Source: Octopus sinensis
Taxonomy: Eukaryota
Length of the DNA stretch: 64,000 nt
NCBI RefSeq assembly: GCF_006345805.1
Contig: NC_043001.1
Coordinates: 84,072,001-84,136,000, forward strand
Direction of reading: 5' to 3'
Shown: positions 6,001 to 57,000 of the stretch, in pieces
Numbering within the stretch: position 1 is the first letter of the stretch
Layout of the letters: each line of letters begins with the position of its first letter
Program-made: the position numbers

Positions 6001-9000
6001 GGCACAAGGCCCGAAATTTTGGGGGAGGGGGCCAGTCGATTAGATCCACCCCAGGACGCAACTGGTACTTCATTTATCGACCCTGAAGGGATGAAAGGCA
6101 AGTTGACCTGTTGTTGTTGTTGCCAAGGTACTAGTTTTAGTAGTGGCTATAGTGATTTTTATAGCATTAGTGGTTGCAGTTGTTCCGGTGGTAGTTGTTA
6201 TTGTGGTAGTGTTAGTAGTAGCGGTAACTTTGGAGGTCGTTATTGTTCCTAGTGTTGGTGGTTGTTGTTATAGTAGTAGTAGTAGTAGTAGAAGTAGTGG
6301 TGGTGGTGGTGGTGGTGGTGGTGGTGGTGGTGGTGGTGGTAGTAGTGGTGGCAGTCGTAGTAGTATTAGTGGTAGTGATGATGATAGTAATAGTTGTGGT
6401 TCTTGTTGAGGAAGTGTTTGCTGTTATGGCAGTAGTTGTAGTGGTTGCTGTAGTGGTTTTATCGTATTGGTGGTCGTTATTATTGTTCTAGTGTCGGCAG
6501 TTGTTATAGCAGCGGCAGCAGCAGCAGCAGCAGTAGTAGTAAAGTAGTAGTAGTAGTAGTAGTAGTGATGGTGATGATGGGGGTGATAGTTATTGTTATA
6601 GTAATAGCTAAAGTGATGGTGGTGGTGGTGGTGGTGGTAGTGGTGGTAGTTGATTTAGTAGTATTAATTATAATTATGATGAGACTAAAACCGTTGTTGT
6701 TTAGCCACCACACCCTCCAAGTCAACCTTGATCGAAGAGGTTAACTTTTAATCAAAAGCCTGCCAAGTATGACCACCCCATCTGTTTAGCAGACGTCTAG
6801 GAAACTACATTATCCAAGACAACAAAAGTGCAGTTGTTATTGCTATTACTTACTGCCTCATCTGAATTTAGCCCCGACCGAGTAACTTCAACATCAAAGA
6901 CGCTCCAAATATGACGATCCCATCATGTTTTCAGACGAGGTTGTCAGCTGCTATTCCTGTTGTTTTGCTGTTCGTGATGGGGCCCGTTGTTGTTACTATT
7001 GCTGCTGCTACTACTACTACTGCTGCTGCTGCTGTTGTCGTTGTTGCTGTTGTTGTTGTTATTGTCGTTGTAGTCGTTGTTTCTCTTGTTGCGTCGTTTA
7101 GCAACCAGGTCAGGCTTGATCGAGCACACCTATGATAAAAAGCACCCAGCTGTGACCATTTCGTCATTTTTGTGTTTTTGTTGGTTTTGTTTTTTGTTCA
7201 TACATGACTGTGTGGTAAGACGCTTACTTTCAAACCACATGGTCCCGGATTCAGACCCACTGTGTGTGGCACGTTAGGCAAGACTTCGTATATATATATA
7301 TATATATATATATATATATATATATATATATATAACGGGAAGGTTTACGAAAATAAACAAAAGACGAAGGCAGGTGGAGTACAAACAAGCAAATGCATTA
7401 GTATGGCGCTCAGAAATAGAAATAGAACAAGTCGTTTACGTTTCGAGCCTACGCTCTTCGACAGAAAGATACACAGAAAAAAAAAAAAGCAAGGAGAGAA
7501 AAAAATGCGTGTAGGAGCTAACGATCTATCATATGTATATAATATACTGCCACGCTTTTTGATGGAATCCTTTTCTGTAGAGAAAGGGACTTCATCCTAT
7601 ATTGTTAGTAGTAAACTCACTGCTTGTTACAAGGGGACCGGTAACCATTACAATATGTAGCGGCGAAAGGTCAACACGTTGTTCTGAAACTGACCAAGGA
7701 ATTTTTATTTTTAGATATAAATGATGTACTTAAATTTAGTTATGTTTTTAGCTTCTGCTTTTTCCATGATCACATGTGAGTATTTTATTTATATTCCCTC
7801 GTAAGCTCTACTGAAGAAGAATGTATCCTTTATAGGATTAATTCTGAAATTGATTCAATATAGAGATAACGAAATTTAAATTTTCTAAAGCTTAGTTGCC
7901 CGCTTTCAGTTCAATTTTCCTGTAACAAGTGGATTATAAGTGGATAAAGCAGTGTATTGGCTTTAGAATAACACTCTTTAGCCCTTAATTATAAGATGTT
8001 TATACTTCAACCGTAAAGGTTTTTTTAATATACTGCCACGCTTTTTGATGGAATCCTTTTCTGTACAGAAAGGGACTTCATCCTATATTGTTAGTAGTAT
8101 ATATATATATATATATATATATATATATATATATATATATATATATATATATATATATATTATATATAATATATATATATATATATTATATATTATATAT
8201 ATATATATAATATATATATATATATATATATATAATATATATATATATATATATATATATATATATATATATATATATATATATATATATATATATATAT
8301 AATATATATTATATTATATATATATATATATATATATACATATATATATATAGGCGCAGGAGTGGCTGTGTGGTAAGTAGTTTGCTTACCAGCCACATGG
8401 TCCTGGGTCAGTCCCACTGCGTGGAACCTTGGGCAAATATCTTCTACTACAGCCTCGGACCAACCAAAGCCTTGTGAGTGGATTTAGTAGACGGAAACTG
8501 AAAGATCGTTATATATATATATATATATATATATATATATATATATATATATATATATATATATAACTAATAGCGACAAAAGCAGTAATGAATAGAAAAA
8601 GTAATCTTTAATCTCCAGTTTAATGAGGAGGATGTGCTAAAACACAGAATACTGCGTTATTTATGGTGAGAGGATCTCTCATAAGGGCTCGTGGTTTGTA
8701 AAATTACATCGTTGACAGACGATCGTTTGCTGCCATATCACGTGATTTCACCTTACTATGGGTTCCTCTGTGACATACGTTATGTTTTAATAAGCCTGCT
8801 GGCTATTTGTGACACTAATACCTGGACAGTTGCTAATATTCTATATATCGCTGACGGGAGATTCTGCTGTTATGTCATTCATGGACATGATTGAAACATA
8901 CATACATACATACTATATATATAGTGAGATGGACCTATGGACCTCTAAGGTCCTTACACATCAGATAAAAGATTCCTAGATTGTTTTATACCAGAATGTG

Positions 9001-54000: not shown

Positions 54001-57000
54001 ATATACATGAATATATATATATAAATAAATATATATATATATATATATATATATATATATTATATATATATATATAATATACTTGTGTAGGTATACGAGC
54101 ATGACTGTATGAATACACATACATATAATAAACACACACACACGAACACACATATAATGAAGATGTTGGCACAAAGAGTCAACAAAAAAAAAACCCCAAA
54201 AAACTTATGGGCAAAGACAAAAAGAATGGAAAAACACAAAACATGCTTAAACTATCATCCGGTGCCAACCAGTTATCAAAATATCATTACATGTATATAT
54301 ATATATATATATATATATATATATATATATATATATATATATATATGTATATATATATATATACTTATTTAAAGCAGCAGAAAATTCAACAAAACCTGAT
54401 ACTCTGAGTTTCCCGGAAAACTCAGAGTAACAGGTTTTGTTACTCTGTTACTCTACCACTGGTATTTGAGTACTCTTTTTTCCACCTTGTTTCACATTTA
54501 TGTGTTTACTCCGGTATTTATATATATATATATATATATATATTATATATAATATACATATATATATATCTATATATATATATATATATATATAATATAT
54601 ATATATATATATATATATATATATATATATATATATATATTATATATATATGTTTGATTTGAAAACCTCACTAGAATGAAGGAGAGAAAGCGCTAATGAT
54701 CTAAGTGATATGATAGATATATATAAAAAATGTAATATATGAATAAAATCTGTAAATATAAACCATCTGATCTGATGATTACCTAATTTCTTCTAATATA
54801 TATATAATATATATATATATATATATATATATATATATATATATAATATATAATATATAATATATATATATATATAATATATATATATATACATATATTA
54901 CATATACATATACATCTATCTATCTATCTATCTATCTATCTATCTATCTATCTATCTATCTATCTATCTATCTATCTATCTATCTATCTGTCTATCTATA
55001 GTTTATCGAAGGGAATCAGATATTTTCTGTATAGAATACACTTAGTATTGCTCAAGTGGTTTAAACTTGAGCGGGTAGAGAAGTAGATGTAAGGATAAGC
55101 GAGTTAGGTAAGTCTAAGCACGAGGTATGATCAATAGGTATCCGGATTCTTGCCATAGTAACGAAGCCAAAGCACGTATAGTGGAGCCATTTGGCACAGA
55201 TTGACCTTGAACGCTGTTGTGCATGCGCACTAAGTTTTAGCGTTCTCGATCGCTTCCAATGTTTACAGTAGTGTATGGAAGGAAGGTGTGTAGCGTGACC
55301 ATGACAGAGAAAGTTGAGCAGAGATTCTGCATCAAATTTTGCCAAAAATTTGGCGATACCAGCTTAGAAATGAACGCAAAGTTTTCAAAAAGTTTTTATC
55401 GTTCTCGACACAATCAAGATCTTGTGCAACTGAAACCCGAGTTTCTTCTTGGTCAGATGAAAGCAGTTTTGGCACAAACTTAGCAGACACGTGTCTCGTA
55501 CCCAAATCTTCAATGATAATGGACTGAACTGAACCGTACCTAATCAACACATCTTCTGATAACTCATAGATGGTGATTCAACGATTTCTCCTCACAGTTG
55601 CACGCACATCTGTGATGATTTTTTCAGTCTAGCTGTTCGTTACTGTCGAAGCTTTTTCAGCTCATACACTCCTCTCCATACTCTTTCAGCAACTTTGCGT
55701 AGGCCTCTGAGCAGGTATCACCAAGCTTTTGGCAAAATTTGATGCAGAATCATGGTAAGTGTGACGAACACACACCACACGCGTTAAAACTTTGTGCACA
55801 TGCGCAGCGGCGTTCAAGGTCAATACTTGCCAAGCAGCTTTTACAATGACAATAGTCCGGGTACTTAATGATCAGACCTTGTAAATTAAATACATGAAAT
55901 ATAAAAAAATGTATATATCTTTACATAGAAAAAGGTCCACAGAGTAGAAGTGATATCAAGAATTAAAGGTGTTGAAGAAAAGTATAACAAATCCAACAAC
56001 TGTTTTCGGGGGCTCGGTAGTCCAAAATGATGTTTGTAGATTGATTCCATCGTCGGATGAGACGAGCCTCCATCTTCAGAGAAGAGATCATACATATGCA
56101 GTGTTGACAGAAAGAAGCTGAAATAAATACACCCCCCCACACACACGCACACGCACACAAACATTAATGTTTGTTTATACCTGTCGATTAGTAACAGAAC
56201 TATTTTACACAAAATTAATCAATATATTGTGACTTCGAAGTTACGGCTTGCTAGCAGTCAACGTCCGAAGAAGGCTTGTAAGCCGTAACTTCGAAGTCAC
56301 TGTCACACTCCTCTTGCAAAAGCATACTACACACAGACACACACACACACAACACACACAGATACATACAAAAAACGCACGTACACAGAGATAAACCTGC
56401 ATCTATCTACCTATCTATCTATCTATCTATCTATCTATCTATCTATCTATATGTATATTTGTATGTGTATACATACATACACGTATGTATATATATAAAT
56501 ACGCGTATATATCTATATCTATATCTATATGTATGTGTGTGTGAGCAACCCGCGCTCTTAACCACTACGCCATATGCCCACGGGCATATGGCGTAGTGTT
56601 CGATTCCAGGCAGTGACTACTACTACTACTACTACTACTACTACTACTACTACTACTAATAATAATAATAATAATAATAATAATAATAATAATAACATCG
56701 AAAAATACCTTAGGAATGAGAACCCAGGTTGATTATTATGTGTTGGGCGCAGTTAAGCGAGAGACCAACAAAACTCCTTGTAAAACCAAAGATGAACTGA
56801 AGGTATGGATTATAGCAGCATTCACCAACTTAAACAAGGAGACCGCCCAGAAGAGTTGCAGGAGATTCCGAAGACGTCTGGCGGCCTTGAAGCCAATGGT
56901 AATTTTATTGAATGAATTTTCTCTTTATTACTGCAAGATCTTTTTATGTAATTTTGGTAAATTTATCTGTTAAAATGAGATGTTAGTGTTATTTTCATTT

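What the first reader, a model, noticed from the sequence alone, without database searches (positions are those of the whole stretch)
7433..56300. About 25 hammerhead-ribozyme-like motifs in 64 kb: a diverse Penelope-associated retrozyme-like system
Seen: three-stem type I folds with core plus GAAA plus NUH. Strongest are 7806, 48946 and 51851. Plausible are 10094, 11355, 19567, 19846/20732, 30777/32556, 41198 and 48367. Variant or decayed are 7433, 9208, 9885, 10945, 22122, 22453, 27001, 48124, 48551, 49723, 55991 and 56262. Stem sequences differ between families, yet pairing is kept. Established: Penelope-like elements and metazoan retrozymes carry minimal type I hammerheads. Inference: many unrelated short non-coding families here use a Penelope RT/GIY-YIG and target (TA)n tracts. 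I do not know of this diversity being catalogued for this lineage.
Basis: partly seen in the sequence, partly recalled or inferred. Interest (0 to 1): 0.92.

Follow-up and report, generated by a model that had tools for sequence, protein, structure and literature searches.

The report
Penelope-type hammerhead elements in TA repeats
This stretch of an octopus-like genome holds a few intact and many decayed hammerhead ribozyme motifs carried by Penelope-type jumping elements that insert into TA repeats, which is a known kind of system seen here in a lineage where it seems not to have been described.

Summary
Of the 24 listed sites, 3 (7806, 48946, 51851) are complete canonical type I hammerheads; no dinucleotide shuffle gave even one under the tight descriptor (0 of 200). 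Two of them are homologous and differ by 8 compensatory pair changes. Two more sites (19846/20732) are complete minimal hammerheads. One (19567) has the full core but a poor helix II. Eleven are relatives with core changes: a U3-A8 form and single inactivating changes. Seven are rejected. Rfam's models hit none.

The Penelope link is real and visible in the window. Two motif pairs lie in the 3' untranslated ends of 5'-truncated Penelope-like copies that still show GIY-YIG endonuclease remnants (31453-32426 minus strand; 19967-20122 plus strand). Partial tandems, head-to-head inverted copies, a one-sided 48-nt tail and (TA)n at 10 of 15 3' ends all match published Penelope hallmarks.

Tandem retrozyme arrays are absent, and self-cleavage is untested. 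Minimal hammerheads, the U3-A8 core, opposite-strand pairs and (TA)n targeting are all in print, so this is a new member of a known kind. The lineage, an octopod by repeat-derived protein hits, seems uncatalogued in the library searched.

The parts
7806..7865 (+). Canonical type I hammerhead of element E1: stem I 5 bp, CUGAAGA, 28-nt bipartite helix II, GAAA, 11-nt palindromic helix III, H17 = A
   Evidence: (78.9 bits with the training model)
7540..8099 (+). Element E1: a 486-bp ORF-less unit plus a 74-bp partial tandem (7540-7613 matches 8026-8099 at 98.6%, pLTR-like). Its 3' end abuts a 250-bp (TA)n
48946..49007 (-). Canonical type I hammerhead of element E2 (CUGACGA, 30-nt helix II, helix III ATCACAGTGAT, H17 = C)
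   Evidence: found in register by a model built only from E1+E3 (20.9 bits, rough E 0.017)
48700..49065 (-). Element E2. Its 3' end shares the ATTTTATCCTAT motif with E3 and lies tail-to-tail with a family A copy across a (TA)6 remnant
51851..51911 (-). Canonical type I hammerhead of element E3, minus-strand copy
51735..52215 (.). Head-to-head inverted pair of E3 copies: minus copy 51735-51950 and plus copy 51947-52215. The plus copy is 5'-truncated inside the hammerhead core; its remnant is at 51943-51998. (TA)n lies on both outer sides
   Evidence: 52.5 bits
19967..20865 (+). 5'-truncated Penelope-like copy. It holds a GIY-YIG C-terminal remnant (19967-20122), a 3' UTR interrupted by a SINE (20328-20549) and a minimal hammerhead (20729-20772: CUGAUGA, U.U then 3 bp, GAAA, A-GCGC-U, H17 = A). 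Its 3' end meets a short (TA)n
   Evidence: best tblastn E 8e-9
19761..19971 (-). Inverted 5'-truncated copy of the same 3' UTR, with an identical minimal hammerhead at 19843-19886
30684..32451 (-). 5'-truncated, frameshifted Penelope-like copy. It holds a post-RT segment (32244-32426), a linker with C-x4-C-x2-C and the GIY-YIG start (31643-32290), further EN pieces down to about 31453, and a 3' UTR with a U3-A8 minimal hammerhead (30776-30818). Its 3' end runs directly into (TA)n
32452..32736 (+). Inverted 5'-truncated copy of that 3' UTR (32452-32689, 95% identical; U3-A8 motif at 32555-32597), followed by a 48-nt extension ('tail') before (TA)n
48068..48462 (.). Head-to-head pair of a related short element: arms 48068-48262 (-) and 48263-48462 (+), 85% identical. 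The UUGAAAA motif is at 48366-48407 and a decayed copy at 48123-48164. The 3' end TTTTCCTTA resembles that of the 30684 element
   Evidence: weak model hit (12.2 bits, E 2)
26930..27159 (+). Family A, a discrete ORF-less element of about 225 bp flanked by (TA)n. Its minimal-hammerhead-like motif is at 27001-27035: GUUU-CCGACGA-A-GAGC..GCUC-GAAAC-GU-U-AAAC, with U4 replaced by C
9074..9312 (-). Family A copy (motif at 9208-9242), with (TA)n on both sides
48507..48703 (+). Family A copy (motif at 48551-48585)
7340..7530 (-). Distant family A relative (motif at 7433-7468, core CUGUCGA with A6 replaced by U). It lies head-to-head with E1, and its 3' end meets (TA)n
   Evidence: nhmmer E 1.6e-7 to family A
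49630..49800 (-). Distant family A relative (motif at 49723-49758, core CUGUUGA)
   Evidence: E 4.5e-14 to the 7433 copy
22122..22167 (+). Decayed hammerhead: stem I 6 bp, CUGAUGA, G12 replaced by A, helix III ACACCGGUGU, C17
22451..22496 (+). Diverged direct copy 331 bp downstream of 22122 (nhmmer E 4.3e-7). Stem I covaries (CUGG/CCAG), and A13 is replaced by G
19568..19651 (+). Single-copy motif with a complete core (CUUCC-CUGAAGA-55 nt-GAAAC-AUGU-GUC-GGAAG) but only 2 bp at the base of helix II. It lies between two microsatellites
8731..8775 (-).
   Evidence: (13.6 bits, E 0.93)

Best explanation
The window comes from an octopod-like genome that is rich in SINEs and microsatellites. It holds a nest of Penelope-like element (PLE) debris, in two forms:
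- 5'-truncated autonomous-type copies, in which GIY-YIG endonuclease remnants are still readable;
- short ORF-less derivatives (E1/E2/E3, family A, and the pair at 48068-48462).

Each element carries a type I hammerhead, or a decayed one, 55 to 250 nt upstream of its 3' end.

Inferred mechanism, taken from the published PLE literature:
1. Elements are transcribed through partial tandems.
2. The hammerhead cuts after H17. It may act as a dimer, because helix III is short and palindromic.
3. A PLE RT/GIY-YIG protein made elsewhere in the genome nicks AT-rich DNA, here (TA)n, on both strands.
4. It reverse-transcribes the RNA from an internal site.

This would produce the partial tandems, the head-to-head inverted 5'-truncated copies and the one-sided tail seen here.

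- the motifs, their excess over chance and their covariation;
- the PLE protein remnants;
- the insertion architecture and the (TA)n association.

Inferred only:
- self-cleavage;
- dimer action;
- which RT moves the ORF-less families;
- whether any copy is still active.

Most copies have lost one invariant core base and are probably catalytically dead.
For: Motifs:
- 3 canonical hammerheads, against 0 in 200 shuffles.
- 5 palindromic-helix-III motifs, against a shuffle mean of 0.045.
- E1 and E3 are homologous through their flanks (nhmmer E 2.4e-5). On their alignment 28 of 28 cells are paired and 8 of 14 pairs are changed on both sides, against 27-43% paired in slid controls.
- A covariance model built from E1+E3 alone recovers E2 in full register as the best non-family hit.

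PLE proteins:
- ORF 31643-32290 (-) has 2255 phmmer relatives at E<=1e-3 and 235 at E<=1e-10.
- 14 of the 15 relatives I scanned carry GIY-YIG. 8 of the 12 long ones (698-817 aa) also carry RVT_1 upstream of it.
- The ORF and the piece upstream of it align collinearly to residues 431-679 of a 745-aa relative.
- tblastn with 16 relatives finds a second EN remnant at 19967-20122 (+).
- Both remnants sit upstream of minimal hammerheads and in the same orientation.

Architecture:
- A 74-bp partial tandem in E1.
- Four head-to-head inverted pairs with their 3' ends facing outward.
- A 48-nt one-sided tail at 32690-32736.
- 10 of 15 3' ends lie within 30 nt of (TA)>=4, against a background of 0.092.

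Literature, text read:
- pLTRs, adjacent inverted 5'-truncated copies, a 30-40-bp tail and (TA)n targets (PMC8557442).
- A PLE protein cuts and extends both strands, prefers AT-rich/ATT sites and initiates internally (PMC11167929).
- Minimal hammerheads with a base between positions 9 and 10.1, G10.1-C11.1, a palindromic helix III, the U3-A8 covariation, and pairs 100-700 bp apart on opposite strands (PMC4209133).
Against: - No Rfam hammerhead model matches any site: none at gathering score in the whole window, and none at E<=10 in the four sub-scans.
- Minimum-free-energy folds do not give the hammerhead fold for E2. Helix III is not formed in the folds of E1 and E3. Only E1 and E2 fold better than shuffles (z -2.6 and -3.5); E3 has z -0.5.
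- Direct Pfam scans of the window's ORF pieces give no RT domain and only a sub-threshold GIY-YIG match (E 0.14, 12.9 bits). A word-indexed protein search of the EN part found nothing.
- 14 of the 20 credible motif instances carry a change at an invariant position or a truncation, so catalysis is doubtful for most.
- The three family A copies share the same U4-to-C change. That means the family spread with a non-canonical core.
- There are no tandem arrays.
- I chose the 15 3' ends by eye and some share one (TA)n tract, so the binomial P (8e-8) overstates the case.
- Only within-window copies could be compared, and the covariation rests on two or three sequences.
Confidence: 0.8

Rival explanations
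1. All the hammerhead-bearing pieces are only randomly 5'-truncated 3' ends of autonomous PLEs. On this reading there are no distinct non-autonomous (retrozyme-like or SINE-like) families.
For: - Two of the motif pairs are demonstrably the 3' UTRs of ORF-bearing PLE copies.
- The E3 plus-strand copy is truncated at an arbitrary point inside the hammerhead.
- The PLE 3' UTRs here are long enough (roughly 520-775 nt by my coordinates) to contain pieces of 200-490 bp.
Against: - The three family A copies begin at the same base, next to (TA)n. That points to a defined element of about 225 bp.
- E1 is a unit plus a partial tandem, with no ORF trace.
- None of E1-E3 or family A resembles the two PLE 3' UTRs present in the window.
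Confidence: 0.3
2. The non-canonical motifs are chance look-alikes inside unrelated repeats, and only the three canonical hammerheads are real. The motifs in question are family A, the U3-A8 sites, 22122/22453, 19567 and 8731.
For: - The relaxed descriptor yields 4-5 hits per shuffled window.
- 10945/11355 looked equally good and proved to be the antisense strand of an (ATT)n-tailed retroposon.
- No fold of these motifs is better than shuffles.
Against: - The motif block is the best-conserved part across family A subfamilies that are only about 73% alike.
- The motifs show published minimal-hammerhead hallmarks that the descriptor did not ask for: the extra base after A9, G10.1-C11.1 and palindromic ACGU/ACCGGU.
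- The U3-A8 motif lies in the 3' UTR of a PLE copy, exactly where PLE hammerheads lie. The same core covariation is published for a PLE.
- Stem I covaries between 22122 and 22453.
Confidence: 0.15
3. The inverted pairs are terminal inverted repeats of DNA transposons or foldback elements. On this reading the hammerhead likeness and the TA flanks come from TA target-site preference.
For: Five close inverted repeats lie in 64 kb. Many DNA transposons also target TA.
Against: - In the two largest pairs, the sequence between or beside the arms encodes PLE endonuclease remnants in the orientation of one arm.
- No transposase domain was found in 149 ORF pieces.
- The arms are of unequal length and one has a one-sided tail, as published for PLEs.
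Confidence: 0.05

Closest known systems
Minimal hammerheads of metazoan Penelope-like elements (Cervera and de la Pena 2014, PMC4209133; text read, supplements not seen)
   Same: - Type I topology and a short palindromic helix III (ACGU, AGCGCU, ACCGGU).
- An unpaired base between A9 and 10.1 (family A).
- G10.1-C11.1.
- The U3-A8 core covariation.
- Many heterogeneous families within one genome.
- Pairs on opposite strands 100-700 bp apart.
- Most copies are solitary and outside full PLEs.
   Different: - The three best motifs here are not minimal. They have a 27-30-nt bipartite helix II and an 11-nt palindromic helix III.
- Several families carry substitutions at U4, A6, G12 or A13.
- The host is an octopod by my lead.
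Canonical EN+ PLEs with the CX2-5CxxC linker (Neptune/Nematis type) and their insertion signatures (Craig et al. 2021, PMC8557442; Frangieh et al. 2024, PMC11167929; passages and main text read)
   Same: - A GIY-YIG remnant preceded by C-x4-C-x2-C, with relatives showing RT upstream.
- A hammerhead near the 3' end.
- Partial tandem (pLTR), an adjacent inverted 5'-truncated copy, a one-sided tail and (TA)n targets.
   Different: - Both copies are 5'-truncated and frameshifted.
- No RT core is left in the window.
- I did not test clade membership by phylogeny.
Metazoan non-LTR retrozymes (Cervera and de la Pena 2020, PMC7229834; Li, Clavereau and Pollet 2026 preprint 10.64898/2026.07.22.740005; abstract and selected passages or sections read)
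   Same: ORF-less AT-rich units of a few hundred bp that carry a type I hammerhead with a fairly stable helix III, and a proposed dependence on PLEs.
   Different: - There are no tandem arrays here. I found only a 1.15-unit partial tandem and one diverged direct pair.
- The E1 unit is 486 bp, above the 170-400 nt given.
- No circular RNA data are available.
Schistosome SINE-like hammerhead elements (Sm-alpha; known to me from the review PMC6765202, passages read)
   Same: Short dispersed non-coding retroposons that carry a type I hammerhead.
   Different: Those elements have a promoter followed by the ribozyme and occur in repeats. Family A here shows no tRNA-like head that I could recognise, and its core is non-canonical.

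Membership tests
Hammerhead ribozyme, type I | Invariant core C3 U4 G5 A6 N7 G8 A9 / G12 A13 A14 / A15.1-U16.1 / H17, in type I order | tested here: met
   Met together with an acceptable fold at 6 of the 24 listed sites: 7806, 48946, 51851, 19567, 19846 and 20732. Three rejected sites (9885, 10094, 11355) also keep CUGANGA and GAA but fail on helices or context. 11 further sites deviate at 1-3 invariant positions.
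Hammerhead ribozyme, type I | Three helices closing on the core, supported by covariation | tested here: met
   For E1, E2 and E3: stems I 5-6 bp, II 4-5 bp and III 4-5 bp. On E1 against E3, 28 of 28 cells are paired and 8 of 14 pairs are changed on both sides. This rests on only two or three sequences.
Hammerhead ribozyme, type I | Match to the curated Rfam covariance models of the hammerhead clan | tested here: not met
   No family reached gathering score in the whole window. No hammerhead model matched at E<=10 in 7400-8100, 19400-22600, 30650-32750 or 48000-52100. The long helix II is a likely reason, but I did not test that.
Hammerhead ribozyme, type I | Site-specific self-cleavage 3' of H17 | not testable with these tools
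   Needs transcription and cleavage assays.
PLE minimal hammerhead (PMC4209133) | A base between positions 9 and 10.1, G10.1-C11.1, and palindromic 15.2-16.2 or loop 3 | tested here: met
   All three features are present in 5 of 5 family A copies. The palindromic helix III is present in every credible family. G10.1-C11.1 is absent in 19846/20732 (U.U) and in 48367 and E1 (A-U).
PLE minimal hammerhead (PMC4209133) | Location in the terminal repeat or 3' non-coding end of a PLE | tested here: met
   Met for 19846/20732 and 30777/32556, which lie downstream of GIY-YIG remnants in the same orientation. Not shown for the other families.
Penelope-like element, EN+ canonical | GIY-YIG endonuclease C-terminal to a reverse transcriptase in one ORF | tested here: inconclusive
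   EN remnants lie at 31453-31860 (-) and 19967-20122 (+). Full-length relatives carry RVT_1 followed by GIY-YIG, and the window pieces align collinearly to residues 431-679 of one of them. The RT core itself is missing from the window. Direct Pfam gives GIY-YIG only at E 0.14.
Penelope-like element, EN+ canonical | Partial tandems (pLTR), an adjacent inverted 5'-truncated copy and a one-sided tail | tested here: met
Penelope-like element, EN+ canonical | Clade assignment (Neptune, Nematis or Penelope/Poseidon) by RT/EN phylogeny | not tested
   I saw only the C-x4-C-x2-C linker motif. That is a lead towards the Neptune/Nematis type.
Metazoan non-LTR retrozyme | Tandem repeats (dimers to multimers) of a unit of about 170-400 bp, each unit with a type I hammerhead | tested here: not met
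   TRF finds no array with a period of 60 or more among 169 arrays. E1 has one hammerhead and a 74-bp partial repeat. 22122 and 22453 are a diverged direct pair 331 bp apart.
Metazoan non-LTR retrozyme | Expression as linear and circular RNAs of unit length | not testable with these tools
   No RNA data are available.

The most novel reading that the evidence does not exclude
Octopod genomes may hold a large, uncatalogued radiation of Penelope-dependent mini-elements that colonise (TA)n microsatellites. This would include:
- a hammerhead class with a long bipartite helix II and an 11-nt palindromic helix III that the current Rfam models miss;
- families such as A that kept the minimal-hammerhead fold and still multiplied after losing an invariant core base.

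If so, the fold would serve the retrotransposition machinery in some way other than self-cleavage, for example as a recognition or dimerisation module for the PLE protein.
Probability: 0.2. Interest if true: 0.55.

Novelty: new member of a known kind. Interest (0 to 1): 0.3.

Why it matters
The window gives a compact natural example that links four things already described separately:
- PLE protein remnants;
- hammerheads in the 3' ends;
- the inverted, tandem and tail insertion signatures;
- (TA)n targeting.

The lineage is one where two library searches turned up no hammerhead catalogue.

It also shows practical limits of annotation:
- Rfam misses all of these motifs.
- Pfam misses the decayed endonuclease.
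- Microsatellites flood RNA-family scans with false miRNA hits.

The spread of family A with a non-canonical core bears on an open question, noted in PMC8557442 and PMC4209133: whether PLE hammerheads are needed for cleavage at all.

Tried and rejected
**Scans and searches that gave nothing useful**
- Rfam at gathering score and at E<=10 gave no hammerhead hit. The whole-window E-value list (387 hits, 150 shown) was swamped by microsatellite 'miRNA' matches.
- Pfam on 149 ORF pieces gave no RT and no GIY-YIG at E<=0.01. That first led me to think the window held no PLE protein. Reading the 216-aa ORF and the phmmer search corrected this.
- A word-indexed search of the EN part found no hit.
- NCBIfam gave nothing relevant.
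- The Atlas look-alikes are a lead only. The top clusters scored 0.96, and one had GIY-YIG on 10% of its members.
- TRF found no long-period array.

**Folds and alignments**
- MFE folds did not reproduce the hammerhead fold for E2. They gave no support for the short motifs.
- MAFFT alignments of the three canonical motifs (A1, A2) put E2's core out of register. I therefore built the model and counted pairs on E1+E3 only.

**Sites rejected after inspection**
- 10945/11355 passed the relaxed descriptor. I rejected them because a 5'-truncated copy (56657-56731) and the (ATT)n tail show that the element's sense strand is the opposite one.
- 12205-12270 (-) passed the strict descriptor but lies in a LINE ORF piece.
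- 10094, 9885, 41198, 55991 and 56262 gave no acceptable fold, and none has a second copy.

**Lineage**
- The LINE piece pointed only to a fish protein.
- A repeat-derived ORF matched Octopus bimaculoides and Argonauta hians proteins at 77-88% identity over 16-19% of the query. This is a lead, not proof.

**Left unchecked**
I did not use genome contigs, which holds bacteria and archaea only. Genome-wide copies therefore stayed unchecked.
The species lists of PMC4209133 and the consensus file of PMC8557442, which names Octopus Naiads, may already hold related entries.
- Lunse et al. 2016 was not held. I saw it only as a reference in PMC6765202.

Full report
**What the window is**

The window has 64,000 bases and no N. 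It is about 38% G+C and packed with microsatellites. There are 91 (TA)n loci covering 4.7% of the bases, and TRF finds 169 arrays. A tRNA-derived SINE is present in more than 20 copies. No long ORF is present. A repeat-derived ORF piece matches proteins named for Octopus bimaculoides and Argonauta hians at 77-88% identity over 16-19% of its length. I take the source to be an octopod cephalopod, as a lead only.

I wrote a type I hammerhead descriptor and ran it on both strands. The strict form finds four cores: 7806-7865 (+), 48946-49007 (-), 51851-51911 (-) and 12205-12270 (-). In 200 dinucleotide shuffles the mean is 0.04, and none reaches 4. The tight form finds the first three, against zero in every shuffle. 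The fourth lies in a LINE C-terminal ORF piece, and I take it for chance.

The three share one architecture that the descriptor did not require:
- stem I of 5-6 bp;
- a helix II of 27-30 nt, made of a basal 4-5-bp helix, an internal loop and a distal 5-6-bp helix;
- a helix III of 11 nt with five palindromic positions on each side of one central base.

Helix III can form as a 4-bp hairpin, or as an intermolecular helix in a dimer.

**Covariation**

E1 (at 7806) and E3 (at 51851) are homologous through their flanks (nhmmer E 2.4e-5). On their alignment all 28 cells of the 14 pairs are standard pairs, and 8 pairs differ on both sides. When the 3' partners are slid, only 27-43% of cells pair and only 1 double change remains. 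A covariance model built from these two alone gives three informative hits:
- the truncated E3 plus-strand copy, at 52.5 bits;
- E2 (48946-49007), at 20.9 bits (rough E 0.017), as the best hit outside the family, with every modelled pair standard;
- next at E 0.93, an unlisted relic at 8731-8775 (-), whose helix III resembles E2's.

**Evidence against the three being hammerheads**

None of Rfam's hammerhead models matches them. Nothing reached gathering score in the whole window, and no hammerhead model matched at E<=10 in the sub-scans. MFE folding does not form helix III for E1 or E3, and it gives a rival fold for E2.

**The other listed sites**

One search gives a checked parse for each site.

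- 19846/20732 are identical complete minimal hammerheads: CUGAUGA; helix II with a U.U then 3 bp; GAAA; A-GCGC-U; H17 = A; stem I of 3 bp. They pass a minimal-hammerhead descriptor that finds 5 cores in the window, against a mean of 0.045 in 200 block shuffles.
- 19567 keeps every invariant base and a 5-bp stem I, but its 55-nt helix II has only 2 bp at the base.
- 30777/32556 and 48367 read UUGANAA in place of CUGANGA, followed by a 4-5-bp helix II, GAAA and A-CCGG-U. In 30777/32556 an extra A follows GAAA.
- Family A has three copies that are 92-95% alike, at 9208, 27001 and 48551, and two relatives about 73% alike, at 7433 and 49723. It reads GUUU-CCGACGA-A-GAGC..GCUC-GAAAC-GU-U-AAAC. This is a minimal hammerhead with one core substitution: U4 to C in the main family and A6 to U in both relatives.
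- 22122 and 22453 are homologous (nhmmer E 4.3e-7) and lie in direct orientation 331 bp apart. Their stem I covaries (UUCUGA/UUAGAA against CUGG/CCAG). Each carries one change in G12-A14.
- 48124 is a three-mismatch copy of 48367.
- 10094, 9885, 41198, 55991 and 56262 give no acceptable fold and have no second copy.
- 10945/11355 pass the relaxed descriptor, but they are the antisense strand of a retroposon with an (ATT)n tail. A 5'-truncated copy at 56657-56731 keeps only the 40 nt next to the tail, and SINE copies elsewhere carry the same tail.

With the relaxed descriptor the window has 17 cores, against 4-5 expected. The excess is accounted for by the sites above, and the other eight hits are at chance level.

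**The Penelope link**

My first Pfam pass found no RT or GIY-YIG domain. Reading the 216-aa ORF at 31643-32290 (-) changed that. It ends in a C-x4-C-x2-C motif followed by a GIY..YVG-like stretch. Direct Pfam gives GIY-YIG only at E 0.14.

An exhaustive phmmer search gives far more: 2255 relatives at E<=1e-3 and 235 at E<=1e-10. I scanned 15 of the 150 listed relatives with Pfam. 14 carry GIY-YIG, and 8 of the 12 long ones (698-817 aa) also carry RVT_1 upstream of it. The ORF aligns to residues 474-679 of one 745-aa relative, and the piece upstream of it (32244-32426) aligns to residues 431-473 of the same protein. Further endonuclease pieces follow in other frames down to about 31453.

tblastn with 16 such relatives finds one other remnant in the window, the endonuclease C-terminus at 19967-20122 (+), with a best E of 8e-9.

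So there are two 5'-truncated, decayed copies of autonomous-type Penelope-like elements:
- 30684-32451 (-);
- 19967-20865 (+), with a SINE inserted at 20328-20549.

Each carries a minimal hammerhead in its 3' untranslated end. Each also has an inverted, more severely 5'-truncated copy at its 5' side: 32452-32689 and 19761-19971.

**Insertion architecture**

- E1 is a 486-bp unit preceded by its own last 74 bp (98.6% identity).
- E3, the pair at 48068-48462 and the two PLE copies form head-to-head inverted pairs with their 3' ends facing outward.
- The right arm at 32689 is followed by 48 extra bases before (TA)n, while the left arm runs straight into (TA)n.
- 10 of 15 3' ends lie within 30 nt of (TA)>=4, against 9.2% of all positions (binomial 8e-8). 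I picked the ends by eye and some share a tract, so the figure is indicative only.
- The stretch 48.0-49.07 kb holds four such elements packed around TA remnants.

**How this compares with what is in print**

- PMC8557442 (passages read): pLTRs, adjacent inverted 5'-truncated copies, a 30-40-bp tail at one end, (TA)n as preferred target, and hammerheads near the 3' end of canonical PLEs. It also notes cephalopod PLE remnants.
- PMC11167929 (main text, part 1): a purified PLE protein cuts and extends both DNA strands, prefers AT-rich sites and starts reverse transcription internally, which explains the tail.
- PMC4209133 (parts 1-2 of the text): minimal hammerheads in PLE terminal repeats; many heterogeneous families per genome with covariation; a base between positions 9 and 10.1; G10.1-C11.1; a palindromic helix III; the U3-A8 core covariation; motif pairs 100-700 bp apart on opposite strands; and low in-vitro activity, probably as dimers.
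- PMC7229834 and the 2026 preprint 10.64898/2026.07.22.740005 describe ORF-less tandem 'non-LTR retrozymes' related to PLE terminal repeats.

**What remains specific to this window**

- The host lineage. The searches 'hammerhead ribozyme' with 'cephalopod'/'Penelope' and with 'Octopus' (5 papers, none on the subject) found no catalogue. Supplements were closed and may hold some.
- The long-helix-II form of the three intact ribozymes.
- The fact that family A multiplied with a non-canonical core.

That changes at U4, A6, G12 or A13 abolish cleavage is my recollection of classical mutagenesis. It does not come from any call.

**Verdict**

The motifs are real at 17 of the 24 listed sites, in the sense of hammerhead ancestry. 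At 3 sites they are complete, canonical and supported by covariation. The Penelope and (TA)n inferences are supported, now with protein remnants in the window. The retrozyme label is not met: there are no arrays and no RNA evidence. Seven sites are rejected. This is a new member of a known kind and of modest interest.

Noticed in passing
49310-49545 and more than 20 other places (for example 47479-47709, 27293-27568, 14295-14527, 23133-23364, 4883-5118): An abundant tRNA-derived SINE of about 235 bp with an A-box/B-box-like head. Many copies end in TA/TG microsatellites. A variant at 1300-1580 and 5620-5900 ends in (ATT)n.
   Followed up: partly
10894-11078 (-), 11266-11454 (+), 56657-56731 (+): An (ATT)n-tailed retroposon family. 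Its antisense strand mimics a hammerhead (CUGAAGA..GAAA). Two copies lie tail-to-tail around another SINE.
   Followed up: yes
3503-3784 (+) and 11969-12256 (-): LINE debris. One piece is a weak Exo_endo_phos match (E 0.004). The other is an RTE-like C-terminal piece, 71% identical to a 329-aa fish protein that carries RVT_1.
   Followed up: partly
44000-46000: A strongly C-rich, low-complexity stretch (GC skew -0.56) that gives long proline- and serine-rich pseudo-ORFs of up to 372 aa. I did not look at it further.
   Followed up: no
It has no hammerhead core.
   Followed up: partly
whole window: At E-value thresholds Rfam reports 387 matches. The 150 best-scoring ones that were shown are nearly all miRNA families (mir-297, mir-3149, mir-1277, mir-466), and the strongest lie on TA/TG/CATA microsatellites, down to E 3e-10. 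All the matches shown are below gathering score. This is a trap for automated annotation.
   Followed up: yes
8566-8913 (-): An ORF-less element of about 350 bp between two (TA)n tracts. It carries a one-mismatch hammerhead-like motif (8731-8775) whose helix III resembles that of E2. It has no second copy in the window.
   Followed up: partly
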